This document shows positions 1-60,000 of a DNA stretch of 64,000 nucleotides, in pieces. Within the stretch, counting starts at the first letter, position 1. Each line of letters starts with the position of its first letter. Origin of the DNA: Azolla caroliniana (Eukaryota; Plantae; Polypodiophyta). Location of the stretch: NCBI GenBank assembly GCA_043228905.1, contig JBHGNT010000005.1, forward strand, positions 23,932,001 through 23,996,000, given 5' to 3'. The notes beneath the pieces were generated by a model. The model saw only the letters and a list, made by a program, of their open reading frames with translations. It was not told the origin of the DNA and searched no databases. Position numbers and translations under genes: made by a program.

Positions 1-2054
1 GGAATCGAGAAGAAGATGATCGAGGGTACGGAACGAGTCCGGCAGGATCGGCATCGGAGCCAAAACTCCGGACATTGGAGAATCAAGCCCAGGTGAGCTT
101 GATCAATCATAGAGCAGATGCTTTCCACCGACACCACTAAAAGGGTCGGTGGCCCCGGACGAGTTGTCGAGAGTCGTTACGAAATCGGTATCCCCACATC
201 TTGACCGGAAACTTCGGTAGTTCGACCGGCGTGGCAACATGAGACCGAAAGAGATGGAAGATGGAGGCGGGAGCACAGCAAGGAGAGCGACGACGAGTCC
301 GGGAGAAGTACAAGGGAAGAAGCGGAGAACGAAGACCGATCCTATGGGTCACCTCACACCGGGCTAGAGACTTCGGCGGTCGGCATCGGATCCGACGTAA
401 GACCAAGATACTCACGGTGGCGGCAGGAGAACGGGACCCGGCCGAGAACCGGGCGGAGTGGACATCCGGATAACCGATCCAAAAGGGAGGAAGAGGCAAG
501 CCTACGGGGAGGCCGGGAACACGATACGTCGGTACCACAGGAGAGGGTGTGGAGTGAGCCACCCTCTTGATTTGCGGAGAAAGACAACCCAGGATAAGGG
601 TCAAAGATACAACAAACCTGAGGAGGATCCTTCACACTAGTTCTAGAGGCTCTGACGGTCGGCCCGAGAGCCGGCGTGAGACCTAGAGTGACAAACGGTG
701 GCGGCGAGGGGACGAAGGCAAGGCTGCGGATGGGCGGTCTATGGAGATCCTCACACCGATCCAGCGGTCGGCCCGAGTGCCGGCGTGAGTCCTATAGGAG
801 AGAACGGTGGTGGCAAGTGAACATGACCAGCAAAAGAGGCCGACGCGAAGGTCGGGACTACGGCGAGAGGAAAACGGCAAGCGGTGTTGCCGCGACCTTA
901 CACACACCGGTTCTAGACACTCTGGCAACCAGCAACGAGAGCCGGTGTGAGACCTAGAGAGAAGAACAGTGAACCAAAGACGGCAAGGGGGTGGTCCCAT
1001 GAAGACACTCACACCGATCCGGAGACTCCGGCAACCAGCGACGACCGCCGGCATGAGACCTAGAGAGAAGGACGGTGGCGGCAGGAGAACGTGATCAGAC
1101 GACGGAAAGCAGAGCGAAAAGAGGTATGAGGCCGGCGAGGCGGCCACGAACCGGATACAGACCCGACCGGCAAAGTCAGCAAAGACAAAGATCGGACGCA
1201 CTTGGTACACGAGTCGGTGACCCAACAAGACAAAGGCCTGAGAAGGATCCTTCACACCTGCCCGGAGACCCCGGCTTTTCGGCCGATGTTGCAACGTGAG
1301 ACCGAGGGTAATGGAAGGTTGCGGCAAGGGGACGAAGGCGGCAACAACAGAGGCACCAACCAACCAAGGCATTACGTGAACGAAGGAGGCCATGCGGGCT
1401 GGGACGTGGCAAGGGTGATCTTCCAGTAAGCTACCGGGGACACCCGGTTAAGGAGCGGTGTTCCGAGCCAGAAAGGGCACACCCGAAAGCGGGACAAGAG
1501 ACGTGTGAGTGGCCATCGAGGGCCAAAGCAAGCACGAGTACGGGACGGCGTTCAGCACAGGCGGTGCCGAACAAGGAAGGCGGAAGACGCCACACGGCAC
1601 GGCAACCATAGAAGGAACAAGGAGCGCGTATTGGGGTCACCTAAGGACCGAAGAACGAACGCGCATCTCGGGGACAATAATGTCACACGGGAGCGCGGAG
1701 CGGAGAGAGTCAACACGCGGAGGGTTTCGGGACGCGGAGACGATCGAACCAACAGAGGGACATACGCGGCACGCAAGATGCGGAATCCGGCGTACAACCG
1801 AAGTGACCGGGGGTGCGATCAGAGAACATACGTAGCGGATAAAGGAGGGGTGACCGGATCGGCAACGGTGTTCGGGAGGACCGATCGGGGAAGAAGGCGC
1901 GAACGTCGGATGTGGGCGGGGCCGATAAGGAGCCGGCAAGATGGTCGAGTGCCGGTAAGGTGGAGGACCCGGTTAATCACCGTCATCGAAATCTCTCACC
2001 CTTTTCCTTTCTTGGCACATACCGGTGGTGGATGTGCGGTTTGATGGGGGTGGA
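1..2054 (+). mobile_element. GC-rich 3' internal region of an LTR retrotransposon (element A), ending in a polypurine tract; continues beyond the window start
   Basis: GC-rich block with recurring motifs (CGGYGTGAGACCTAGAG near 673, 781, 944, 1050; GGATCCTTCACAC). PPT-like TTGATGGGGGTGGA at 2041-2054 sits immediately before an LTR starting with TG. No recognisable pol ORF in this part. Confidence 0.7.
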
Positions 2055-2807
2055 TGTCGTGAAGATTTCCGACTATAGTGTGAAACCGGGGTGGAATGGG
2101 CAAGTCGGTGGTGTGCAACATGTGCACATGTATAGTAGGAAACGATGTATAGAATAAGGGGGAGTATTTATCCCACATTGTAACGCCCTCCCCTCCTTGG
2201 TCTATAAAAGGAGGAAAGGGTCTCTTGTAAAAGGGTTGCCCATTTTTCAGTCATAAGGGTATTACCATTTTGATCGAGGGTCTCTTCGTTAGGAATTGGT
2301 CTAGGGTTAGAAACTTTCTTTTGTATTCTTCTTCTTCTCCTCCTCCTTCTTGAGAAGTTGGGGCGCCGCAGCCATGGCGGCAAAGCTCTGTTAGGGTTGT
2401 GTTCTTCGTCGTTGTGCGTGTTGAGTCCTTGTGTCTGTTCTGAGTGTAGCCCGACCCGAAGTAGGGTTTGTATCAATCTTTGTGAATATACATATATTTA
2501 TATATAGATAGATAGATATAAGGATGCGAGAGTTCAAATCTCTGCCGGTGTCGCATGTGTTTCCCTTACTCTGTTCTCTGTACAAACGAGGCGTGGTCTG
2601 AATCAGTGTTGCGCGCATATTCTCTCTCTCTCTCTCCTCTCCTCTCTTGTTCTCAACCAATTCCGGTACATGTCCGGAATAGCCCCGGTTTGTACCACGA
2701 CCGGTGTAGTTGCACCGAAGAGGGTCGGCTTACCAGCATCCATCTCTTCCTGGTCTGAGACCCCCATGGTCCCGCCCTTCTACACGCACGCGCGTAATAT
2801 CGCGACA
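2055..2807 (+). mobile_element. 3' LTR (753 bp) of element A, inserted into the gag of element B
   Basis: Starts TGTCGTGAAGATT and ends AATATCGCGACA (imperfect terminal inverted repeat, TG...CA). Preceded by the PPT; TATAAAA at ~2203. The sequence switches to the minus-strand gag at 2808. Confidence 0.8.
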
Positions 2808-3683
2808 ACATGTAGTGTCAATCTCCATCGGAGTCGGAGTATTCACTTGAGACACATTATATGACTCCCTCAGAAAAGGTTTCGCTACCATTGAGGCGTA
2901 TGTGGGCTCTGATCTTGCCCTCGGCATCTGGAATTGTTGTTCCAAACATCGTTCGAAAAGGCGGTTGTCACATCTCACCGCGCAACTGATTGCTTCTGTT
3001 AATGACTTTGGTTCTTCGACGAAGGTCAAGAGTAAATCCTTGACATCATTGAGTAAACCATAACGAAATTGCTCCATCAATGCTTGATCATCCCAAGGGA
3101 TATGGGCGGCGAGTAGGCAGAAATTTGCAGCATATGTGGAGGCTGGACGATCACCTTGGCGTAATCGTCGGATTTTGTTGATTGTTGTCCTTATGTTATC
3201 AGTATCTCCAAAACAAGCTTTAAACTCACTTATAAATTCTTCAAAATTGTTTAGTAATGGAGATTCCTTTTCTAACAACGAAGCAAACCATACCAATGCT
3301 GAGCCACTAAGTAGAGTGCCTACTAGTCCCACTCGTGATGCATCGGTGGGATATCGAGAATGATGCATTTGAATCACTAAACATACCTGATTCAGAAAAC
3401 CTCTAAACTATGATTGGGTCCCATCAAATTTTGCAAGAAGACCGATCTTGGGTTCTTTGTGAATCCCTTGAGTGCTTGATCCTTGTTGTTGTAGTGATAC
3501 AATAGTCGTGTCAAGTTGTTGTACACCTAACGTCAGCTCCCTATGTTGTTGTTTTTCCAGCGCTATTTGTTGAAGATCCCCCAACAAACGGTGATTTTCT
3601 TGTTCTAGTGCTACAAATTTCTCTTTTAAGCATTGGAGCTCCGAGAAAACAGATTGGTATTCCTGAGCGCCAACAGTTTCCAT
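2808..3683 (-). pseudogene. gag: Ty3/gypsy chromovirus (Tcn1/sushi-type) gag of element B, with one premature stop, truncated by insertion of element A
   Basis: ATG at 3683: METVGAQEY...EPKIGLLAKFDGTQS*FRGFLNQVCLVIQMH...LLSGSALVWF...LRQGDRPASTYAANF...FRYGL...AVRCDNRL...PTPMEID. These motifs are typical of sushi/PEG10-like gag. In-frame TAG at 3408-3410 joins ORFs 3408-3833 and 2730-3377. Confidence 0.88.
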
Positions 3684-3821
3684 TTTACTAGGGAGGATAA
3701 GAGGATTAGTATGAAGGGAAAAAAGGGGTAAGAAATGAGGGAAACCGGAAAGAAGACCGGAAAAAAGGGGATATGTAAGAATATAAAAGGAAGAGGAGGA
3801 AAGGAGGAGACAGAAGGAGGG

Positions 3822-3835
3822 AAATCGGTTCAAAC
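3822..3835 (-). other. Primer-binding site of element B (non-tRNA; self-priming type)
   Basis: Minus-strand GTTTGAACCGATTT immediately follows the LTR end and lacks the TGG expected for a tRNA 3'-CCA. 12 nt are the exact complement of minus-strand 4051-4040 (AAATCGGTTCAA) inside the LTR. Confidence 0.72.
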
Positions 3836-4238
3836 TATCAGGAATAGTACTGAGACAAAGAAGAAATTAGTACTAAGAGAGGAATATTGGTACTAAGAGG
3901 AATAGAGGGTGTAGAACACTCGAGAGAATGAGAGAGAGAGAGTGAGTGAGTGAGAGATCGAGGGAGAGAAAATGATGATGACAGCGATATATTATGTGAG
4001 AAGAATATACAATGAAGGCTAGGAGGCTTAAGACTGGCGTTGAACCGATTTGGTTTGAAATAATGCCTTGTGCCTCCTTTTATAGTGTTCTCGGGAGTAA
4101 TCTTGAAGCTTCTAGAATGTTCCAGAGAAATCTGGAATATACATTAATATCCTATGAATTACAATAGATAGTGTAATGGTCAAGAGCTTGACCCATGTAA
4201 CATAAGGTCATGGGTTCGAGTCTTGCCATATCATGACA
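3836..4238 (-). mobile_element. 5' LTR (403 bp) of element B
   Basis: Minus strand begins TGTCATGA (4238) and ends TCCTGATA (3836; TGACA with a C>T change). TATAAAA at 4084-4078, CT-rich R/U5 region, followed by the PBS and gag leader. Confidence 0.8.
4162..4233 (+). other. tRNA-like (Pol III A-box/B-box) cassette embedded in U3 of the element B LTR; not a functional tRNA gene
   Basis: A-box TAGTGTAATGGT at 4169-4180 and B-box GGTTCGAGTC at 4213-4222, with tRNA-like spacing (~45 nt from U8 to G53). T-stem pairs mostly through G-U; acceptor stem does not pair. Confidence 0.6.
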
Positions 4239-4840
4239 AAACCAATGCAGTAGAACGAGGACCCACTCGAACCCCTAGACCAGACTAGAGCATATTGGAC
4301 ATACTCATCGAGGATTGAAGAGGCTAATTGTGGGTTCGACGTACAATGTATTGTCCCACGGGCGTGTCATGTGTTGGTCAGAGGCTGGAGTATGAAAGAC
4401 AAGTGGGGGATGAGTCAGAAGCAGAAAGTATTAGTTATTAATTAGCTAGAATTAAAATAGGAACGAACGGATCTGAAAGAGTTGCAACGATCTGGATCCA
4501 GACCGATTCGTAGCCAGTTGCCGGTATGGCACCGTTTTGTAATCAGAACCGGATTCCTATAAAAGGATCCGAAGAACGATGTATTAAGTATGGTGGAATG
4601 AATATAAGTAGAATTGTCTTTGAGAATATTGTGTACCTTCCTTTCTGTGCTTATGGTTTTATCTTACGAATGACATCAATCTGTGTATGTTGTTAATCCA
4701 GAACCGACCCGAAAATAGTCGGATATAATTATAATCCTACCAAAAGCATAAACCCTGTAACCACCCTTTGGTGAAGTGATCCGAAAGGAGACCCTGTGTT
4801 AGTGGCTAGTCCGGCCCAGGATTAAAAACCTTATTGTGCA
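4239..4840 (+). mobile_element. Probable LTR fragment of a third retroelement (host of element B)
   Basis: Higher GC than the flanking AT-rich DNA, CTATAAAAGG at 4557-4566 and LTR-like U5 composition. Termini are not clearly defined. Confidence 0.35.
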
Positions 4841-5186
4841 TGTTTAATTGGAACCATTTACAAACTTGTCAATTTTCATCACAAACTATTGATTTTTATC
4901 CTTATTGATATAGTTTAAACAATATCCACCCATCCAACAATGAAGATATTTTACATGCCTTGTGTAAGCTCAAACAATATAAACACTTACATTACAAAAT
5001 AAGTGCACTTTGGGTCATATAAAACAATTGGCTTGGCCAAGTTAGCTACAAGGGATACAATCATTGTCCAAATATTCGGTTAATCCAAACAACCTTTCCA
5101 AATATCATGAATCCTCCTTTGGTCAAGGGATCCTTTAGTAGAATTTCTACTACCCGTTGTCTCTGAATGTTAGAAGGGGATGTATG

Positions 5187-5770
5187 TAGCAATGGGCCTA
5201 GTTTAGTTTCGGTTTGGTTTGGTTTCTTTGCCTTGAAACCAAACTGAACTAAACCAAACCATTTATATAAAACAAAAACCAAACCAAACCATTTAAGAAA
5301 AGGTAAACCAAACTATTTAAACCAAAACCATTTAGGGAAATGTTGAAATCAAACCGAGCCATTTAATAAAAAGTTTAAACCTAACAACATTTAAGCCAAA
5401 CTAATTAAAAAATTAAATAAATAGAAATATACTAAATTAAATAAGCACTTATGTTAATTTAAATAAATAAGCATTAATTAAGCCATTAGATTAAATAAAC
5501 ATTTAAGTTAAATGAATTAAATCAATAAAAAACATTAATTAAACATTAAATTACATAAACATTTCAGGGATAAAAAAAGTTAGCCCAAACACCTATAAAC
5601 CTTTAAACCAAACCACTTAAACCGATAAACCCCAGTTTCAAAACCGAACTGAACCATTTGACTAATAATTAAAACTAAACCAAACCATTTAATTATTTTG
5701 GAACTTATAAACCTTTAAACCATGGCTTAACGGTTCAATTTAGTTTGAGTCGAAATTGGGCCCATTGTTA
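5187..5770. mobile_element. hAT-family MITE (584 bp)
   Basis: TIRs TAGCAATGGGCC / GGCCCATTGTTA. Perfect 8-bp TSD GATGTATG at 5179-5186 and 5771-5778. Subterminal AAACC(A/G) repeats in both orientations. Confidence 0.9.
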
Positions 5771-6333
5771 GATGTATGTAGCATATTGGTGAAGAAGAAT
5801 TATTACGTCAACCAAACCCCTAGAATTTCAACTACTCATTGTCTTCTAAATGCGAGAAGGGAATGTTTTAATGTAGCATATTTGTCAAGGTGAATTCTTA
5901 AGTCAACCAAACCCCTAATTCAACCTACACGTGTTGCTTTTTAACATAAAGCCACAAGGATCATACATATATATCTTTTTTTTATTTCAATTACATGGTG
6001 CATATGTATACGTACCATCACCGATTCTCATTCCCCCCTGCCCCTCAAGCCTCTACTTGTTTTATTATGACTGGAGATGGTGCTGACACTTTCTTGACCC
6101 TTGCAACTTGTTTTTCGTAATAGTAATGGTAACCATGGCAAGATTTTGACGGGTTTCATGCTCGTCAAAAACATACACATAGTAAAAATGCTCGTCAAAT
6201 GAGATATAAAGTTTAAATTTTCATTTTCATGTGAAAGGCCCCTACAAATTATGCATGTCAAATAACATACTAAAATTCTATTTTCCATGTCATATATATT
6301 ATATATATACATATGTCACTTATTATAGATAGT

Positions 6334-7791
6334 CAGTAACCATTTGGTTAAGTGTGTGCCCACTTAAGTGTGCTATTCTATTAAGTGCGCATTTTATAGA
6401 GGTCAAAATCTAGATCAAAAAATTTACATTGTTTCATGATGAAATTACATCTAACCAAATTGAAACTATGTTCAAACATTTAAAAAACAATAAAATCATA
6501 TAAAAATCTGATTATTACACATTGAATGGTATGGTATGTGTGCCAATTAGCAAATTTCACATTCAGTGATATAATTTATTCATATTCATCCCCTCCTTCG
6601 TAGTGTTTCCCTACCTGAATACTCTTTCTATTGCTTCTTGTTATTTTTATTTTATTTTTTTCCAAAAAAAGATACTACATTAGTATTAGAAAACCGCCAT
6701 AAGGCTAAACATACAAGCTATACCGATCCCCTATATTTTTCTAAAGTCTAACCATTGGCTTGAATAAACACTTTGGTGTTGAGTAGAACCACTCCACCTT
6801 ACCAAAATACCGTCTATAAAATATACCTATGTCCCAAATGGCATGAAACTCCACCCGCCTAAGCTCCGCTTGATGCGTATTACCTTTTATTGTTATTGAT
6901 GCATCTTCTTAATCTTCTTATAATTCTTATTCTTCTTCCTTCTTTTCCTTATTCTTTCCTAAACCACTTCTTTTTCTTGATTCTTATTGATCCTAATTTG
7001 TTTCATTCTTCTTCTTCCACTGCAGATGCATTTCCTTGATTCTTCTTCTTTTACTCTATGTACTCCCTTTTCATGATGTTTCTTCCTACTAATACCCCTT
7101 CCCTTCTTCTAATGAGTTCTTAATTCTTATTATTCCGTCTACTTCCCCTTCCCCTATTCATCATCATCTACTTCCTTCTGTTTCTTTCTTTGTATTTCCT
7201 TCTCCTTGCTCCCTCTCCTTTCTGGTTCGTCTTCTTCTACTTCATGTAGAGTTCTAGTCCATGAGAGAAAATACAAATTTCATAATATATTTGCGCCTGT
7301 AAAGCTTCATAAACTAGATTGTAGCCCCATAAATAGCTACTTTCAAGATGATAGTTCCAACTACTTAGCATCCATAAGAGAAAAAACTTGCAATTTCAAA
7401 TTAAAGAAAAGGTTTTTCTAGGGTTGAAACAATGAAAATCACTTCCATTGCAACAAATTAGATCAAATTTCTATAAACAAATTAGAACAATCTTCAACAT
7501 ATGAAATGCTCAAGTTTTATTGGAGAATAGAACAACAAATACCTTCTGCCACAATAGGTGAGAACAGTCAGCTTCGACAAACAAAATTTAAATCTGTTTA
7601 GCTTCCTCCTGAGTTAAAGTTCTATTGTAGAAGAAAAAATAGAAGAACAGTTTCTGTGAAACAAGTTTTGCATAAGAAGAAAGAAAAAATTGGGAAAAAA
7701 AAATTGAGTGAAAAGGCCCTAAGTGCACAACTTGGTTAAGTGCGCACTTCTTCCTTGCGTTCAGAGTGCGCACTTAACCGAATGGTTACTG
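6334..7791. mobile_element. Non-autonomous pogo/Tc1-mariner-like element nested in the hAT element
   Basis: 21-bp TIRs CAGTAACCATTTGGTTAAGTG / CACTTAACCGAATGGTTACTG (1 mismatch). TA on the right flank; subterminal TTAAGTGYGC repeats at both ends. Confidence 0.8.
6660..6890 (-). mobile_element. Short 3'-end fragment of a LINE, same family as the 45.8-48 kb LINE
   Basis: AAGATACTACATTAGTATTA...AACCACTCCACCTT...GGCATGAAACTCCA is collinear with 45829-46050; T-rich tail on the left. Confidence 0.65.
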
Positions 7792-10084
7792 TACTATGAA
7801 GTGTGTATAATAATATATTTATTATTATATTGTAATAATGCTATATATTCTCAAATATTTATTCTTTACTAATAATATTAGTTGAAATTTGATTGAAATT
7901 TTAAACAATAACTTTTATTAAATACTTTAAGAGTGTAAACTCTGGGTTTGATTTTAATGATTTAAGTTGTTTTATGTTTAAATCAAATTGTTTACTTACC
8001 TAAAAGTTTAAGTTAATACAAAAAAATTTACTAACCTTTTTTTCATATTTATTAGTAAAAACATTAACACGATATTTATTTTATGTATTTCATTATCATT
8101 GTGAGGTAGTTATGTGTTTATTTGTGCATCTTTGTGTACTTTCTATAGTAATGAAATATATAACAATGAAGCATCATATAGAGCTTTTTATTATTAAAAT
8201 TTTATGTCAAATGACATGTTAGTTTTTGCACTCTCATGTTATATGACATACATCTTTAAAAAATGCCCGTCGAAAAACATTAATACTAACCCATCAAATT
8301 TAGGCCCTGATGGTAAGTTGCCTTTGAATTCTAGATTCTTTATGGTAATGTACAATTCAATATATGTATTGCACCATGGTTTTTTTGTTAAGAGATACAT
8401 TGTTTGCCATAAATTTCACAAATTGACAAAAATTACAATCTTATTGAGCTTTAGTTCATATAGAGTACAATGTACATGCTCATAATATATATATATATAT
8501 ATATATGCATATCCCTTTACTGAGATGTTCATAGAGGTATTATTCTATCTATATAGCTTATAATACAATACTAGCATTGAGCTTAATGAGATATTATTCA
8601 TAATGGCATCATCCAATATATCAAATCTAATACACTTGGTAGCTTTGCCTTTTGTATTGTTGTTGGCTCATGGGTTAGGGAATTCACAACCCTATGGTTG
8701 CATAACAACTACTATACAGTTGCACAAACATATTTATGTTTTATATCATCGATTAAGTGCGCCCATCAATAGAGAATAATCTTCTAGATCTAATTACTCT
8801 ACATTTGGGGATGATGTACAAGCTATACATGTAGTGCTCACACATTTTGTTTTAGTAGGTAACAACTTCTCAAGATTAAACATATGTTAGGTTTTCATGC
8901 CAATTCATGTTACGACGAATTTACAATAAGCTCAAATGTTAAGGAAAACTAACAACATACTAGAGACGACAATGGAAACAAATTTAAATTAAACCCATCC
9001 ACGATAATAGTTGCAGCAAAGAGGTATGCAGGACACTAGCAATCATGTCATATCAACAACTTTGTATGTTCGGCATGGCGTCAATATTTGATTATGTATG
9101 TTTACATTGAAGAGAATTTCTTCGGCCACATGATGAAGGATATGATTTCCACAATCCTCATTGTTTCCACTCGAAACAACGTGCATGTGTACAGGTACGC
9201 ATACACGTAATTTATTGTGAAACACACAAGCTTGATATCTTGATCCCTTGGTTAGGATGAATCCACATGTACCCTCCAAAACGAGACAAACAAAATATGT
9301 GTGGTCAAGGGACATTACAATTTAGCATGATCCATATACTAATAATGGGAGGCATGGTGGGTTAGAGGCAGATTGATCGAGCACGGTAACTTTGAAGAGA
9401 TGCACGTGGTAAAAGAGAGCAACTATGATGTAACTCTAGTGATTCCTTCTGCATCCTACTATTCTCGACAGACAATTTGGATTGTTATGAGTCATGCGGG
9501 ACATGCATTCACACCATTTGCCTTCTTTACAACAGTTATTATAGAGAAGCATGAGTAGCATTACATACAGCACCGGAGAAAGTCGGCCCAAAACTGGGGA
9601 TATGAGTGACTAGATCAAATTATCGAGAGATAATAATAGTAAAAAACAGCTAGAAATGGAGGGTCCACTGACTCAAGAAACAAAAAAAACAAAAAGCAAA
9701 GTATGAGAAGAGACCAAAAGAAAAGAATAGAAAAACAAACTAAAGGAGAAGGAGAAGAGCAGAAAGCAAAGAAGAAGAAGAAGAAGAAGAAGAAGAAGAG
9801 ATGCTTTTCTGCTTTTCTTGCTTTTTGGCGGAAAGGCAAAGGGAAAAGAAAAAGCGGAAAGCACAAAAAACAAAAAATAAAATAAAGAGGAATAATAAGA
9901 GAAAAAAAAAACAAAGGAGAAGAAGAAGGGAAAAAAGATAAAAAGAACAAAGGAAATGAAAATAGGAGGGCAGAAAAGCAAAACGCAAAACGCAAAAAGC
10001 AAAGATGGGAATTTATGAATATTATTCTTTTTATTTTTTATTTTTTATTTAGAATTAAAGGGGGAAAAAAAAAACAAATACGGA

Positions 10085-10216
10085 TATATAAGCGCAGAAG
10101 AATCGAAGCTTCAGTCTATCTTCCATAGCCATAGCCATAGCCATCTTCATCTTCATCATCATCTTCTTCATCTTCTTCTTCATCTTCTGCAGCGGCAGAA
10201 GTAGCAGAAGCAGCAG
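10085..10216 (+). promoter_or_regulatory. PDX1 core promoter (TATA) and non-coding first exon
   Basis: TATATAA at 10085-10091 followed by a (GCCATA)n/(CTT)n leader. Donor CAG|GTCAGT at 10216/10217; acceptor AAGCAG| at 11619, two bases before the ATG, giving a ~1.4-kb 5'UTR intron. Confidence 0.6.
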
Positions 10217-11621
10217 GTCAGTATCTGTCTCTCTCTGTGTGTGTATAATATGATGCCTTTCTCCTGATCTTCTCCTGCTTGTCTGTTTCTCCCTGAATCA
10301 CCTGCCAGAGATCAAGCTCTCTGTTTTGATATACCTCACTCACTATAGTAGGTGAAGAAACTGTTCTTGGTTTCTTCGACGAAGCCTTTTAATGCTGTTC
10401 TTTTCTTTTTTTGTTTTCCCTTTCGTTGATTCTGGATATGGCATGGCTTCCATTCTTTTCCTTTTCATTCTTCCTCTTCTGAGCCATGCCGTATACAGGC
10501 CTCTGTTTTAAGGCTTTCTCCTTCTTCCTCGGGAGACCTGTCTGCCTTATACATATTAGTGTTTCTTTCGGCTTCTTTTCCAAGAATCTATCTTCTGAAT
10601 CCTTTTCAGCTGTATATTTAGGGCTTCTTCAGAGCTCTCGTTCGTGCTCTGAGGTTTGTCTGCTATAGATTTAGGCTTCTTTTGAGTTCCTCTTATTTCC
10701 GAGGCCTATCTGCCACATATTTAGGATTTTCTTTAGAATCTGATTGTCTTAGGTGTAGGAAAAGTTCCATTAATGTCCTATGTCCTATGCTCAGGTTTAT
10801 CCTCTTGATATTCAGTGTTTTGACTTCTTGTAGAGTAGTTATAGAGTTGTCAGCTAACATGACTGACATGTCATGATCTCCTCAGGCTCTACATTTTTGT
10901 TTCCCTGAAAGGCATAAACTGTCTTATCGCATCTAATTTTTCCTGATCTAGTTTTTCTATTTATGTTTCTGCAAATAAAATCTTCATGCTTTGAATCAGG
11001 CAATTTTGAGTTCTTCTGTGTGTTTCACATCAAGTTTGTGAAAATAAATTTTTGTGTTTTGCAGCAAGTAAATTTTCACTTTTGTTTTCTGTAGAATATT
11101 TGTAACATCGTGTATTATGTCTTAAGTATTTTTCTCACCCTTTTAAGAATTCCACTGGTTCATCTTGATGTTCTCGTGAAGGATTAGATGCATTCATCCT
11201 GAAGGTGTTTTTAGTAGCTCTTATTACTTGTGGAAACTCTAAAGATTTGACCGATTTTTTAGAAATGTGTAAAGCTGTGTCGCACTTTCATTGGGGTTTC
11301 TGTTGCTGCATAGGTTTCACTGGGAAATCTTGCATCATAGAGAGTTCTGGTTCATCCCGACGTTTTTAAAGAAGGGTCTAAATTGTGATACACTTTTGGT
11401 TGGGGTTTTCCTGTATTGCACAGTGCTCACCAGTAAAATCTGCATGCTACATTCTCTTACTCATGATATATTACATGAAGTTTATGCTTTTTGAATGTCC
11501 TTAGTGGTAACCTAAAGTTTGCAAGTCTCTCTCTCTCTATATATATTTAACAAATATTATGGATCACACTTCAGTATTTGTTCAACTGGTAGTGGTTACT
11601 GACTTTAAATTTTAAGCAGTG

Positions 11622-12551
11622 ATGGCAAGCGATGGAGTAGTTACGGTCTATGGCAATGGTGCGATTTCGGACCCAAAGAAATCGTCATACGCAGTGAAGG
11701 TTGGATTGGCTCAGATGCTGAGGGGTGGAGTGATCATGGACGTTGTAAATGTTGAACAAGCACGTATTGCAGAAGAAGCAGGAGCTGCAGCTGTTATGGC
11801 TCTTGAGCGTGTTCCGGCAGACATAAGAGCCGAAGGTGGAGTTGCACGCATGAGTGACCCTGGCTTAATCAAAGAAATCAAGAATGCTGTAACTATCCCT
11901 GTTATGGCTAAAGCTAGGATAGGTCACTTTGTTGAAGCCCAGGTTCTCGAAGCCATCGGTGTCGATTATATTGATGAGAGTGAAGTTCTTACTCCCGCCG
12001 ACAACGTGAATCATACCAACAAGCATAACTTCAGGATTCCTTTCGTCTGTGGATGTAGGAACTTAGGCGAAGCTCTACGAAGGATCGCTGAAGGTGCAGC
12101 GATGATTCGAACCAAAGGAGAGGCTGGAACTGGTAACGTGGTCGAAGCAGTGAGGCATGTGAGGTCAGTGCTAGGAGAAATTAGGAAGCTTCAGAGCTTA
12201 GATGACGATGAGGTGTTCACGTTTGCGAAGGAAATCGCAGCTCCTTATGAGCTTGTGAGGCAAACCAAGCAACTTGGCCGCCTCCCGGTAGTGAATTTTG
12301 CTGCTGGGGGTGTTGCCACCCCTGCGGATGCTGCCATGATGATGCAACTTGGCTGTGATGGCGTCTTTGTCGGATCAGGAATCTTTAAGAGTGGGAATCC
12401 TTCTCAACGTGCAAGAGCCATTGTCTCAGCTGTCACTCACTTTAATGATCCTAGTGTTATAGCAGATGTTAGCTGTGGGTTGGGTGAAGCTATGGTCGGC
12501 ATTAACCTCAGCGATAAGAAAGTAGAGCGCTTTGCAGCCAGATCGGAGTAG
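11622..12551 (+). CDS. PDX1: Pyridoxal 5'-phosphate synthase subunit PDX1 (309 aa, intronless CDS)
   Basis: [15 protein letters not shown]...[14 protein letters not shown]...[13 protein letters not shown]...[11 protein letters not shown]...[14 protein letters not shown]...ERFAARSE. The catalytic Asp and Lys residues are retained. Confidence 0.98.
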
Positions 12552-54032: not shown

Positions 54033-57000
54033 TCATTTCCTCTTTGAACCTTTAGTTTTCTTTCTAGCAATGGGCTTTATGGGTCTTGCAACCGATTTCA
54101 AGACTGGTTCTGTGTTTGATTTCAAGACTGGTGCAGTCACCACAGCCGGTTCTGGTCTAGTTGAACTTTCTGGTTTCCCCAAGTGTGATGTCTCTGGGAT
54201 TTGCAAGAAACTTTTCACAGACGGTCTCTTCATAACTGCCACAATAAATAACCATTTTGAATGAACGAACCCCCCATGGATTATATAAAATAATATTTAG
54301 GAAAAAACATATACACAAACCTGTTGACTGAACTAATGACCAGAAATTGGATGTCATCCAATAGAAGAAGAGTGCCTGAAACATACATGAACGAGAAGAA
54401 ATTCATTATTGCCAACTAAGAAAAGTACATGTGAGATGTTTAAAACTTGTTACTTTCACTTCACTTCAAGTTGGCACTAAGTTTTTATCAAATACATGTC
54501 AATACTTTTCTCTGCCATAAATTTGGTATTTCAAAGTTATAAGTGGGCAAAAGTCCAACATTTCTCTAGCTGCTCTCTTTTATCCCTTCATTTTTTCATA
54601 TACTGGGGCTGTAAAAAGGCAATAATCTGGATGCCACAATGCAAAATATACAATGTGCCAACTATGACTTAGAAGACCCCGACATGGCACCCTCAATATG
54701 TTTTAGGACACATGAACTAGCAGGAGCTCAGCAGACTGTATCACAAACATCTATGAAAAATAGTGTTTTGACACCATCTAGTTATCTACAACGAAATGAA
54801 CTTGTCACCTAATTCTAACAGCTTTATGTGCTTTCCATTACGAAATATGGGAACACAAATCATTACATCCTCTGGATATCGTAAAACACCAAAACCAGCA
54901 AAGTCTTCACCATCCAACCCTGCCCTATCAGAGCTGACCAGATTTATATTTCCACAACCATCACTCACAACACTATCAAAATCACCATTAACTCCATCCA
55001 AATCAAAATCACCATTAACTCCATCCAAATCAAAATCACCACTACACACTATCATCCACTTCACCCATGAACCAGCTAAAACTTTTAAGTCAGCACATCC
55101 ACAAGGGACTCTACCATCTATACCCAACCGTAACCCTTGATACCTTCACCTCCCAACTCTCTACTATAATCCATACCTCCACCATCAATAGTTTTCTACA
55201 CCACACTGTCAAGACCCCACCATCTCAGGAACATGACCTGGAACCCATTGATATAAAGAGGACTGTTAACAGATGCACCGACAACTTCATGCAAAGATAA
55301 ACCTTGGGTAAATTACATAATAAACAGCCCACAAGAAAATGGGAACTCTCATGCACCAAAGACAGCACATCTACAAGGAAGCATTACATTGGGCTTTATA
55401 ACCCCTCTTCATTAGCAAAGGCTCAGCCACAGCCTAGTGTCCCTTCAGAGAACCTCAACAAATGATTCTCAAACATAGCACTTATGCAGAGAGCATTTGT
55501 CATGTCCCTCATCAACACTGCTATCTCCACCTTCACCTCATACAAGGTTGAGAAGAAAGCATTACATTGGGCTTTATAACCCCTCTTCATTAGCAAAGGC
55601 TCAGCCCCAGCCTAGTGTCACTTCAGAGAACCTCAACAAATGATTCTCAAACATAGCACTTATGCAGAGAGCATTTGTCATGTCCCTCATCAACACTGCT
55701 ATCTCCACCTTCACCTCATACAAGGTTGAGAAGGCCATCTGATGCCTTCGACATGGACGACTATCTGAGCACACAAGACTACAAGATGGCAATCTTATAT
55801 ATGCTCCTACCCTCTCGCATATTTTCGATAGAGCACTGATGACCAGCTTCCCAACACATGGACTATGCACATGATCATACCTCTTCATAACTTAAAAAAC
55901 CTCTACAACCAAAGAGCTATTGGAATATCATCAGTGGCCACCCACTTGCAACACTTTATGGGTTGTTGTTTAACGCAGAACTCTACAAAATGTCAAGGTG
56001 GAAAAGGTACGAGTCCCAAACCAAGCAAGATGTAGGCGTGCCTCCTCCACCATCAATCACATCCTTATAGTATGTTGCTTTGTAGACCAAGCAAAACCAA
56101 AAAGAAATTATTTAAGTACATGGACGTCTACATGTTCCTAGTGCTCAGAGATCAATAGGCCAACTCAGCATTTCCTCCCACCATCTAGAGATTCAAGCAG
56201 GACAAGCACTTCACAAACATACCTACAGACTTTGCAAGCTATGTGAAAAAAATACCAAAAGCAAGCAACATTTACATGCAAGTACCCAGCGTCAAGCACA
56301 TTAAAAGAATTATGTCAAACTCTTTGTAGGCTTCACCACCATTCAAAAGCATAGAGAATCACCTCTATAGTACCCTATGGAATGCATTAGCAATCGCACA
56401 TCACTGATTTCTTCCAAAGGCCTGCACCTCTACAAACAATGTGCCAAGCCACCATAGAGCGCACAAAGGAATGTAAATGACAACAGAGACCATGAGTACC
56501 AAGAAACGAAGCACGCGGTGTCGTGTGGTTTTTCACACACGATATGAAAAGTATGTAAAAAAATAATGAAATAATTATTTTAGATTAGATTAGTGGCTTG
56601 ATATAGAAAGATGGATGTACTCACGAGCTTCAAAACGCATTTTACTACATATAAAATGGACAACTACATATCAAGTTAGGTGGACATGAAGTTTAAGAAG
56701 ATAAGGAAAATAGAAATTTGAAGTATCCCACATAGATAGGAAACTTTAGGAGCCCGCTATATAAGCAGATTGAGAACCATCATTTTTCATTTATGTGTTA
56801 AGAGCACAAAAGAAATAGTTGGGCTTGGGCCACTTTTGTATAGAAGGACAGATGTGGCTAAGTCGCCGGATGTGGCTAAGTTGCTCGAACCGGCCGGTGA
56901 TGGAACTCAAACTGGTCGGTGATAGTACCGAAAACCAGATGGAACCGGTGTACAACCGGTGACCGAGCAAAGCTGGCAACCGGAAACCGGACGGAGCCGG

Positions 57001-60000
57001 CGACCGGACGTATCTGGCAACCGGAGATGGGGCGGAGCCGGCAACCGGATGGAATCGGTGATCGAACCGAAACCGAACCGGACAGAGCCGACGACCGAAC
57101 AGATCCGGCAACCGGTGACCGGATAGAGCCAACGACCAGTTGCCGAATCCATCCGGTTGTCGACTCCGTCTGGTCGCCGATCGCTGGCTCCATCAGGTTT
57201 CCGGTTGCCAAATCCATCCGATCACTAGTCACCGGATCCGTCCGGTCGCCGATCGCCGAATCCGTCCGGTTGCCAGTTGCCAAATCCGCTCGGTCGTTGG
57301 TTGCCGGATCCATCCTGTCGTCGGTTGCCGGATCCGTCAGGTTTCCGGTTGCCAGCTTTGCCCTGTCACCAATGGAGTAGCCGGCTCCATACGGTTTTCG
57401 GTACTATCACCAACCAGTTTGAGTTCCATCACCGACCGGTTCGAGCAACTTAGCCACATCCGGCGACTTAGCCACATCTGTCCTTCTATACAAAAGTGGC
57501 CCAAGCCCAACTATTTCTTTTGTGCTCTTAACACATAAATGAAAAATGATGGTTCTCAATCTGCTTATATAGCGGGCTCCTAAAGTTTCCTATCTATGTG
57601 GGATACTTCAAATTTCTATTTTCCTTATCTTCTTAAACTTCATGTCCACCTAACTTGATATGTAGTCGTTCATTTTATATGTAGTAAAATGCGTTTTGAA
57701 GCTCTTGAGTACATCCATCTTTCTATATCAAGCCACTAATCTAATCTAAAATAATTATTTCATTATCTTTTTACATACTTTTCATATCGTGTGTGAAAAA
57801 CCACGCAACGGACCATACGAGCATCAGATGATGGAGATCACTACTCACCATGTCTGATCCACCAGAGGACACTCAAATGCAATCGGTGAACTTCGTCATA
57901 GCCTCCCTCCACCACAGTCATTGATATTAAATAATATGTCCCCTCACCACCATTCATTCTGCATGTAGTAGTTGAGCATTTCATGGTTATAACACCATAT
58001 CAAGCCTCATTTAGCAATCATGATTCATCTCATAGGCTGATTTTGGGCTCCAGTAGACATTAATATATCGTTCTTGTTCTTTGTTTCTCTAACCACCATT
58101 CTTCCCAAAACATTGTAGTTTTTTTGCACTTTATCCTTGCAAAACTATCTCAAGAATTAATACCCATTGTAAAGCCACCTCATGCATTATGAGTGATCCT
58201 TCCATTCTTCCCAAAACATTGTCGTTTTGCACTTTATTCTTGCAAAACTATGTCAAGAATTAATACCCATTGTAAAGCCACCTCATGCATTACGATTGGT
58301 CCTTCCATTCTTCCCAAAACATTGTAGTTTTGCACTTAATTCTTGCAAAACTATCTCAAGAATTAATACCCATTGTAAAGCCGCCTCATGCATTACTATT
58401 GGTCCTTCCATTCTTCCCAAAACATTGTATTTTTGCACTTTATTCTTGCAAAACTATCTCAAGAATTAATACCCATTGTAAAGCCACCTGGTCCTTGGGA
58501 AACAGCATTTTTCAAGTTTCAATATTGATAGCCTGAAGCTACTGATATTTGTAATCAGGACTTGTCTCATATCTCCATTTTTCTATCTCTAGGTGACTTT
58601 AATATTTTTTTCTTTCTATCATTCGTTACATACTTTATCATCTGCAGTATATTTCTTTGATGAGGCTACTCTCTGGCCATTTCAGAAATTCAAACATAGG
58701 CATTCAGAAGTTTCATCTTTTAAAAATACAAAGAGATCTGAAAAAAACAAGGTTAACAAGGAACGCTTAAAAGTTCTACCTTTTCAAAATTCATAGAAAT
58801 GGGAAACAGAACTATGGCAAAGATTCTCATGAATTTCTTCATCTTGTCAGCCAAAGGATTCCCTTCCATGCCTTCAGCAGCATTTAACTGAAAAATGAAA
58901 TGTCTCTTCAAGTTAAATTGCCTGCATAAAAACGTGATACTTCAAATAGAAAATTAATACCAAGAATCCCACCTCCACAGTCAGCAGAACACCCAGGCAT
59001 GTTGCTAGTGGCAATATATACGTGGTATCTGGAGTCGTGAGATCTGTAAACCATAGAAAACCTCCTCCTTTAAAGGATTCAACTCTCGCTGCCATATTTC
59101 TTATCTACAAGACCAAAGCCCACCTGGGATTAGTCAACGGTTTAATTAGACATGTTACTGAAACTCCTAGAATTAAGTAGCAACAGCATTTAATGAAAAA
59201 AATTAGAATGAACTTGAAAATCACAGGATGTACATTTATGAGTTGATGGAACTTGCCCAAGCAAAGAACTTACCGCAAAAAAGAAACACATGAAGATGGG
59301 AGCTTGTAAAAGTGCACCAACAAATGGAGAAAATGGAGTTGTGTTATATCTGAAAAAAATGTATGCACACCTTAATCAACTTTTATCTAGGAAACACTCT
59401 GCATAGAAGACGCCTGAATTAAGCAAGTACTGAAATATTCGTTGAACATTCACAGACCAACATTTCCAATCTTAATAAGAAAGCACAGAGCTTTCCCATG
59501 TTTTCTTCTATATCAAATTATCAAACACTTCAAACTGTAATCAATAAATAGAATATACCAACTTTGTAAAAAGTGCCATTATTCGTTCCCGAGCTTCAGC
59601 AGATACTCTTGGATCATAGCCCTACACACATGAAATACACTTGAAAAAAAATGAAAAACTAATATCAAAATGAAATTCAGCAAGGTAATGATTTGAGAAT
59701 TACACTATCTTTAATTTCAGCATTGATTCTCTCCATTTCTGGTCTCATCAACTGCAAAAAAAAAGAGCATCAATTGCAGAGATTCCTACAGAAACATCAA
59801 TTGCAGTAATCATTAAGTCCACATAACTTTGGATGCATACCGAGAGTTTAGCTGCAGATCTAAGCTGGAACACAACCACAGGAACACAGAATATTCGAAT
59901 CGCAAGAGTTGTGGCAGCAATTGCAGCCCACCTAATAAGTAATGTTCATTTGTATTAGCATAGAGAAGTCTCGAGAGATATGCACCTTCAGAAGGTAGTT

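What the first reader, a model, noticed from the sequence alone, without database searches (positions are those of the whole stretch)
3822..4084. Plant chromovirus-type LTR element with the hallmarks of tRNA-independent self-priming
Seen: the sequence right after the 5' LTR (minus strand GT-TTGAACCGATTT, 3835-3822) has no TGG to pair with a tRNA CCA end. Instead it is the exact 12-nt complement of AAATCGGTTCAA at 4051-4040, which starts 33 nt downstream of the first base of the LTR's TATAAAA (4084-4078), i.e. where the transcript should begin. Established: fission-yeast Tf1 and related Tf1/sushi-group elements prime reverse transcription by folding the first ~11 nt of their mRNA onto the PBS, whereas most plant LTR elements use tRNA. 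The gag (EPK...FDG...FRGFLNQ, PTPMEID) is sushi/Tcn1-type, a lineage of fungi that is also reported in non-seed plants. Inference: this is a self-priming retrotransposon family in a plant genome.
Basis: partly seen in the sequence, partly recalled or inferred. Interest (0 to 1): 0.8.

Follow-up and report, generated by a model that had tools for sequence, protein, structure and literature searches.

The report
Self-priming Tcn1 retrotransposon in a fern
This is a broken copy of a jumping gene, in what is likely a fern, whose primer site pairs exactly with a 12-base stretch of its own terminal repeat and changes in step with it across related families, so it likely starts copying itself with its own RNA rather than a tRNA, a trick proven in fission yeast and already predicted for this lineage in mosses and clubmosses.

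Summary
Observation confirmed. The 12 nt after LTR end + GT (3833-3822) are the exact complement of 4051-4040, 33 nt after the TATA box; 1 of 20,000 LTR shuffles matched this. The LTR is 4238-3836. The copy is dead: gag has a stop and is cut at 2807 by other DNA. The host is likely a fern (PDX1 97% to Adiantum). In 34 sequences where both arms were located without using complementarity, 399 of 408 positions are Watson-Crick pairs, pairing stops at both edges, and at least 18 of 22 changes per arm are matched on a gag tree. Relatives encode PR-RT-RH-IN-chromodomain and resemble Selaginella SM-Tcn1, whose published sequence shows the same pairing, though its authors reported none. The mechanism is not new: Tf1 self-priming is proven, and REXdb predicted it for 83% of 1,500 moss and clubmoss Tcn1 elements. 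What this adds is a fern host (not found in my searches) and covariation evidence. Start site and cleavage are untested. The scan noted similar arms before in Copia and BEL elements on other DNA.

The parts
3836..4238 (-). 5' LTR, 403 bp, TGTCA...TGATA (family majority TGACA)
   Evidence: Similarity to relatives ends at 4238-4239; contig depth drops at 4239; same start follows the PPT in L005 and L006, and the 3' LTR of L006 ends TGACA
4078..4084 (-). TATA box (TATAAAA), likely the LTR promoter
   Evidence: Sequence; a TATA 31-33 nt before the arm in the 34 paired sequences (this spacing was a search criterion there, but the unconstrained search gave the same spacing)
4040..4051 (-). Predicted self-primer AAATCGGTTCAA, inferred first 12 nt of the transcript (start of R)
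   Evidence: Exact complement of the PBS; first base A in 34 of 34, preceded by a pyrimidine in 33 of 34; pairing stops at its 5' edge
4031..4039 (-). Conserved C(A/G)CCAGTC(T) after the primer; predicted to extend the stem towards the LTR end (bulged C13, R14:U, C15:G, GTC:GAC)
   Evidence: Folding and pair counts; mostly invariant columns, used as a search motif, so weak evidence
3834..3835 (-). GT spacer between LTR end and PBS
   Evidence: Sequence; GT in 33 of 34, GC in L076
3822..3833 (-). Primer-binding site TTGAACCGATTT, no TGG
3684..3821 (-). Pyrimidine-rich leader between PBS and gag
   Evidence: Sequence
2811..3683 (-). gag, decayed: in-frame stop at codon 92 (3410-3408), cut before the zinc knuckle
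   Evidence: 82-83% identity to unnamed gag proteins, 45-47% to Ceratopteris proteins
1..2807 (.). Unrelated G+C-rich DNA that interrupts gag; likely the end of a nested LTR element (ends ...CGCGACA on +), not identified
   Evidence: Similarity to relatives stops here; 0 of 12 ORFs hit Pfam

Best explanation
This is the 5' end of a dead, interrupted copy of a high-copy Ty3/gypsy chromovirus, likely of the Tcn1 clade (Tf1/sushi group) and likely in a fern, whose family likely primes reverse transcription with its own RNA. Shown: the PBS is the exact complement of a 12-mer 33 nt after the LTR TATA box, and the two co-vary across related families. Inferred: transcription starts at 4051; the first 12 nt fold onto the PBS; the element's RNase H cuts after base 12 (by analogy with the 11/12 cut in Tf1) to free a primer; minus-strand synthesis copies the GT spacer and then U5-R. 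Because the PBS of progeny would be copied from the primer (established for tRNA primers, recalled for Tf1), matched changes are what priming predicts. This copy cannot move itself.
For: Perfect 12/12 match, 1 of 20,000 shuffles. In 34 sequences (33 loci plus the window) with both arms located by flanking motifs, 399 of 408 positions are Watson-Crick and 4 more G-U; 26 of 34 are 12/12; positions -1 and -2 pair in 1 of 34 each and +13 to +16 in 0 of 34. Among 13 distinct arm/PBS types, own pairs average 11.5 of 12 against 8.5 for swapped pairs; 0 of 100,000 permutations reached the observed sum (ignores relatedness). On a FastTree gag tree, 22 parsimony changes in the arm, 22 in the PBS and 26 jointly, so at least 18 are matched; sliding the PBS 1-3 nt lowers pairing from 98% to 5-47%. 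The 34 fall into 20 clusters at 90% and 12 at 80% gag DNA identity. Mean pair probability of the helix is 0.91 in the window copy. The published SM-Tcn1 sequence, read by eye, has TATA at 362, AATCTGAATCAA at 395-406 followed by CACCAGTC, LTR end at 496, GT, then TTGATTCAGATT: 12/12 with 5 matched differences from this element. REXdb predicts self-priming for 83% of 1,500 Tcn1 elements.
Against: No RNA evidence: start site, cleavage and priming are untested. 8 of 34 have 1-2 non-Watson-Crick positions. 18 of the 52 sequences with an LTR-end+PBS motif were dropped because no arm passed the motif filter; 6 of these have a 10-12/12 partner (L009, L032, L071, L074, L079, L080), the other 12 have none, mostly where the contig is short or breaks inside the LTR, which I did not verify one by one. 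The loci are collapsed metagenome contigs, nearly all from one series of assemblies, so arms may come from different copies and hosts are unnamed. The third duplex of the Tf1 'pretzel' was not found (1 of 27 with z below -2, mean z -0.27). Novikova 2010 reported no evidence of self-priming for SM-Tcn1, though its sequence shows the pairing. No tree with reference Tcn1, Tf1 or sushi sequences was built.
Confidence: 0.9

Rival explanations
1. The PBS binds a host tRNA fragment. The PBS TTGAACC is complementary to a T-loop-like GGTTCAA, so a cleaved tRNA could prime, and the LTR match would be a relic.
For: Several arm types resemble the tRNA T-loop motif (GGTTCAA, GTTCGAATC, GTTCGAGTC; the motif is recalled). 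Half-tRNA priming exists in plant Ty1/copia. No host tRNA set could be scanned: no genome is held and the window has 0 tRNA genes.
Against: The PBS changes in step with the LTR arm at 7 of 12 positions; a tRNA-copied PBS should stay fixed to a tRNA and has no reason to track the LTR. Types such as L076 and L080 lose the T-loop look and still pair. REXdb found half-tRNA primers only in Ty1/copia.
Confidence: 0.03
2. The pairing is real and selected but serves RNA structure (packaging, dimerisation, translation control), with priming done some other way.
For: Covariation shows a helix, not its use. The flanking structure differs from Tf1: no third duplex found.
Against: The 3' arm sits exactly at the PBS position, 2 nt after the LTR end; no TGG site stands in this copy or in the aligned loci shown; the 5' edge of pairing is fixed 31-33 nt after TATA; the same layout is the proven primer in Tf1 (PMC7175516).
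Confidence: 0.05
3. The match is chance or an assembly artefact.
For: The relatives are collapsed contigs of repeats.
Against: 1 of 20,000 shuffles; same layout with different letters in 12 clusters at 80% gag identity and in the genomic SM-Tcn1 record.
Confidence: 0.01

Closest known systems
Plant Tcn1 clade of chromoviruses (REXdb; SM-Tcn1 of Selaginella moellendorffii, PpatensLTR elements of Physcomitrium)
   Same: Overlapping gag and pol frames, PR-RT-RH-IN-chromodomain with the aromatic cage in relatives; RT core of L006 about 80% identical to SM-Tcn1 (124 of 156 by hand count); same TATA/12-mer/CACCAGTC and TGACA-GT-PBS layout; self-priming predicted for 83% of 1,500 elements.
   Different: Host is likely a fern; the clade was reported only from mosses and clubmosses, and a PCR survey of 26 ferns and horsetails did not report it (passages). 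Different 12-mer. This copy is dead.
Tf1/Tf2 of Schizosaccharomyces pombe (also Tj1, Tosmo1-3, Tcry1)
   Same: 5' end of R complementary to a PBS just after the 5' LTR, no tRNA.
   Different: Tf1 primer is 11 nt with a proven RNase H cut between bases 11 and 12; here 12 nt and unproven. Tf1 needs a three-duplex structure; here I find the central helix and a weak inner extension, but no duplex 3' of the PBS. S. pombe Tf elements have a single ORF; this family has two overlapping ORFs.
Tcn1 of Cryptococcus neoformans and vertebrate sushi
   Same: Same group; self-priming proposed. ESM Atlas neighbours of the RT-IN region are mostly chordate and basidiomycete clusters (a lead only).
   Different: Sequences not compared here; different kingdoms.
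TAR lineage of plant Ty1/copia
   Same: Self-priming predicted for 89% of 203 elements, so plant self-priming is not confined to one lineage.
   Different: Other superfamily, other domain order.

Membership tests
Ty3/gypsy chromovirus | LTR with TG...CA ends and PPT | tested here: met
   TGTCA start, TGATA end in this copy (TGACA in the family); PPT before 3' LTRs of L005 and L006
Ty3/gypsy chromovirus | pol order PR-RT-RH-IN with C-terminal chromodomain | tested here: met
   Met in close relatives L006 and L007 (Pfam); the window copy holds no pol
Tcn1 clade | Group I chromodomain with aromatic cage | tested here: met
   L006 and L007 carry YEV...WLGY, read against the Y/W/Y description in PMC3350952. 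Not exclusive: also in Chlamyvir and Galadriel/Galahad
Tcn1 clade | Placement with Tcn1 references in an RT/RH/IN tree | not testable with these tools
   No tool supplied named reference sequences. Substitute: about 80% RT-core identity to SM-Tcn1 by hand count and shared gag motifs
Tcn1 clade | gag and pol in separate overlapping frames (60% of REXdb Tcn1) | tested here: met
   L006 gag ORF ends 1476, pol ORF starts 1449; L007 1080 and 1053
Tcn1 clade | 5-bp target site duplication | not testable with these tools
   The 3' end of this copy is not in the window and no genome is held
Tf1/sushi self-priming elements | LTR segment complementary to at least 10 nt starting 0-5 nt after the 5' LTR, no tRNA PBS (REXdb criterion) | tested here: met
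   12 nt, starting 2 nt after the LTR end
Tf1/sushi self-priming elements | The complementary segment is the 5' end of the transcript | tested here: inconclusive
   Indirect only: fixed TATA spacing, pyrimidine-A start, sharp edge of pairing. Only contigs were available
Tf1/sushi self-priming elements | Three-duplex 'pretzel' structure | tested here: inconclusive
   Central duplex met; inner extension weak and nearly invariant; duplex 3' of the PBS not detected by a simple energy test (1 of 27). I did not see the published structure figures, so the test may miss a short helix
Tf1/sushi self-priming elements | RNase H cleavage releases the primer | not testable with these tools
   Needs biochemistry; an RNase H domain is present in relatives

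The most novel reading that the evidence does not exclude
Tcn1 is an abundant, diversified lineage in ferns, closing the gap between mosses, lycophytes and seed plants and favouring one early acquisition followed by loss in seed plants; and land-plant Tcn1 uses its own form of self-priming, a 12-nt primer ending at a bulged C with a GT spacer and no third duplex, conserved from Selaginella to ferns, which implies cleavage rules unlike those of Tf1.
Probability: 0.3. Interest if true: 0.5.

Novelty: new member of a known kind. Interest (0 to 1): 0.3.

Why it matters
Self-priming is proven only in fission-yeast Tf1; for plant Tcn1 it rested on single-sequence complementarity, and one paper saw no evidence for it in SM-Tcn1. 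The matched changes found here make the plant case much stronger and give exact predictions (start site, 12-nt primer, cut position). A fern host extends the known range of a clade thought to have come from fungi. It does not add a new mechanism, and this copy is dead.

Tried and rejected
No own genome is held, so genomic copies, target site duplication and host tRNAs could not be examined. Viral-contig scan: 0 relatives among 57 pattern matches. Sequencing runs: no RNA holder listed, which is no evidence on expression; all laid runs were contigs, so no start site. One search listed no variants inside either arm, but it also omitted variants at 3837 and 4056 that one search listed, so I do not use it as evidence of conservation. 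My first LTR start (4163) was wrong; corrected to 4238. The count '0 of 52 with TGG' is partly circular because the PBS search required TT, so it is not used. The careful IQ-TREE search did not finish; one search shows the quick tree and one search uses FastTree. A third 'pretzel' duplex was not found. A U3/R palindrome was considered as part of the mechanism and set aside because it is absent in the TTCGAATC clade. The DNA at 1-2807 gave no Pfam hit (0 of 12 ORFs). Literature searches for Tcn1 in ferns or for plant covariation evidence found none in the listings; two searches listed only 25 of 213 and 30 of 442 papers, and subscription journals are mostly missing. REXdb Additional files 1 and 3 (per-element PBS data, sequences) were too large to read and may bear on the host range and on SM-Tcn1.

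Full report
Observation. On the minus strand the LTR ends at 3836, followed by GT and TTGAACCGATTT (3833-3822). This is the exact reverse complement of AAATCGGTTCAA (4051-4040), which begins 33 nt after the first base of TATAAAA at 4084. Each 12-mer occurs once in the window. In 20,000 dinucleotide shuffles of 4163-3836, one gave a match of 12 nt or more to the 20 nt after the LTR end.

Anatomy. Relatives align up to 4238-4239, contig depth falls at 4239, and the 3' LTRs of L005 and L006 begin with the same TGTCATGATATGG after a purine tract, so the LTR is 4238-3836, 403 bp. This copy ends TGATA; most family contigs have TGACA (position 3837), and the 3' LTR of L006 ends TGACA followed by unrelated flank. 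Gag runs from 3683 to about 2811, matches Retrotrans_gag and Ty3_capsid, has a stop at codon 92 and is cut before the zinc knuckle by unrelated G+C-rich DNA ending at 2807. That DNA gave no Pfam hit in 12 ORFs; a nested LTR element is my inference. No pol or second LTR lies in the window; the rest of the element may lie beyond the window's left end. Thousands of contigs per run lie on 2700-4400 in four runs of four studies (4,019-10,922), so the family is high-copy.

Host. The intronless PDX1 gene at 11625-12551 is 97% identical to Adiantum nelumboides and 91% to Hymenophyllum, against 87% to Selaginella and 85-89% to mosses. The only named eukaryotic gag relatives seen are from Ceratopteris richardii, 45-47%. 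The host is likely a leptosporangiate fern; this rests on one gene.

Covariation. A gag alignment fetched 79 metagenome loci (the best 80 of 374 confirmed) and 3 from prokaryote assemblies. Of these 82 loci, 63 with DNA before gag, plus the window, were examined. An unconstrained search for inverted repeats found the same layout repeatedly, with TATA 31-33 nt before the 5' arm. I then located each arm by its flanks alone: 52 of 64 had the LTR-end motif followed by TT, and 34 of those also had an arm (3 taken from the 3' LTR of the same contig). In the 34, 399 of 408 positions are Watson-Crick, 4 G-U and 5 mismatched; 26 are 12/12. Pairing stops sharply: positions -1 and -2 pair in 1 of 34 each, +13 to +16 in none. 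The arm begins with A in all 34. Positions 2-8 vary, and the PBS follows. Among 13 distinct types own pairs average 11.5 of 12 and swapped pairs 8.5; no permutation of 100,000 reached the observed sum, a test that ignores relatedness. On a FastTree gag tree the arm needs 22 changes, the PBS 22 and the pair 26, so at least 18 are matched; sliding the PBS by 1-3 nt lowers pairing to 5-47%. The 34 form 26, 20 and 12 clusters at 95, 90 and 80% gag DNA identity. Dropped rows: 18 of 52. Six have a 10-12/12 partner that failed the motif filter (L009, L032, L071, L074, L079, L080), including further sequence types; 12 show no partner, mostly short contigs or contigs broken in the LTR microsatellite, not checked one by one. 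The loci are collapsed contigs, nearly all from one assembly series with unnamed hosts.

Structure. Folding from arm start to PBS+45 gives the 12-bp helix a mean pair probability of 0.91 in the window copy and 0.78 or more in most relatives, lower in five with mismatches or a shifted register. Many folds extend inwards: C13 bulged, base 14 (A in 19, G in 14, both pair with U of the spacer; 1 mismatch), C15:G in 34 of 34, then GTC:GAC. These columns hardly vary and were used as search motifs, so this is weak. A duplex between the 30 nt after the PBS and R-U5 was not better than shuffles (1 of 27 with z below -2). Tf1 needs three duplexes (bioRxiv 10.1101/2022.12.06.519325, passages).

Classification. 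Close relatives L006 and L007 have gag and pol in overlapping frames and PR-RT-RH-IN-chromodomain, with the aromatic residues of a group I chromodomain (PMC3350952, passages). The RT core of L006 matches SM-Tcn1 at 124 of 156 residues by hand count. No tree with named references could be built, so Tcn1 membership is likely, not shown by phylogeny. The SM-Tcn1 record (PMC2864245, supplement S3), read by eye, has TATA at 362, AATCTGAATCAA at 395-406 followed by CACCAGTC, the LTR end at 496, GT, and TTGATTCAGATT at 499-510: a perfect 12-bp match with five paired differences from the window element. That paper reported evidence for neither tRNA nor self-priming in SM-Tcn1 (section 6).

Mechanism. 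Shown: position, complementarity, covariation, sharp edges. Inferred: transcription starts at 4051; the 5' 12 nt anneal to the PBS; RNase H cuts after base 12; the freed primer starts minus-strand DNA through GT into U5. In Tf1 the first 11 bases pair with the PBS and RNase H cuts between bases 11 and 12 (PMC7175516, passages; the primary papers were seen only as citations). Since plus-strand synthesis rebuilds the PBS from the primer (established knowledge, recalled), covariation is what priming predicts. I put this at 0.9. A tRNA-fragment primer (0.03) is suggested by the T-loop look of some arms but does not explain tracking of the LTR; host tRNAs could not be scanned. A purely structural role (0.05) is not excluded without RNA data.

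Novelty. Neumann et al. 2019 (PMC6317226; passages, Additional file 5) state that most plant Tcn1 elements lack tRNA PBSs and are predicted to self-prime (83% of 1,500), as are TAR copia elements (89% of 203), and that Tcn1 occurred only in mosses and clubmosses. Novikova et al. 2010 surveyed 26 ferns and horsetails by PCR and reported Tcn1 only from mosses and Selaginella (passages). PMC8282616 (passages) adds nothing on ferns. Searches for Tcn1 in ferns found no report in the listings, within the limits given under Tried and rejected. Earlier notes of this scan describe similar arms in Copia and BEL elements of other genomes, none for this clade; they did not change my reading. Verdict: a real, well-supported new member of a known kind. 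The added value is the likely fern host, the covariation evidence and the SM-Tcn1 match. Interest 0.3.

Noticed in passing
SM-Tcn1 record, PMC2864245 supplement S3, 362-510: The published Selaginella element has a perfect 12-nt self-primer/PBS pair in the same layout, although the paper reported no evidence of self-priming (read by eye).
   Followed up: yes
window 4063-4034 and L004, L008, L012, L037: An inverted repeat spans the U3/R junction (U3 end TTGAACC against GGTTCAA in the primer): 4 bp here, up to 12 bp in L012, but 0-2 bp in the TTCGAATC clade and in L013, L044, L065, L066, L076. It could hide the 3' LTR copy of the primer sequence; it does not co-vary; unexplained.
   Followed up: partly
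L004, L005, L006 versus L008 and L003: A G-U intermediate at primer position 5 (arm changed, PBS not) sits beside fully compensated forms in the same clade; may also reflect collapsed copies.
   Followed up: partly
L080, L081, L082: Contigs in prokaryote assemblies (an uncultured cyanobacterium, a Streptomyces) carry this eukaryotic gag; L080 has a full LTR, 12/12 arms and pol. Likely contamination.
   Followed up: no
L071, L074: Distant relatives with a 10-nt perfect arm and TATA 38-40 nt upstream, different from the 31-33 nt of the rest; host unknown.
   Followed up: no
L013, L016, L012, L010: Contigs with pol, one LTR, then gag again: tandem elements sharing an LTR or collapsed assemblies.
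   Followed up: no
window 1-2807: G+C-rich DNA with dispersed 58-nt repeats that interrupts gag and ends ...CGCGACA on the + strand; likely a nested LTR element, unidentified.
   Followed up: partly
window 56520-57809: 429-bp inverted repeat, 97% complementary, around a 24-nt tandem array; MITE- or foldback-like.
   Followed up: no
window 11625-12551: Intronless PDX1 (vitamin B6 synthase subunit), used to place the host among ferns.
   Followed up: yes
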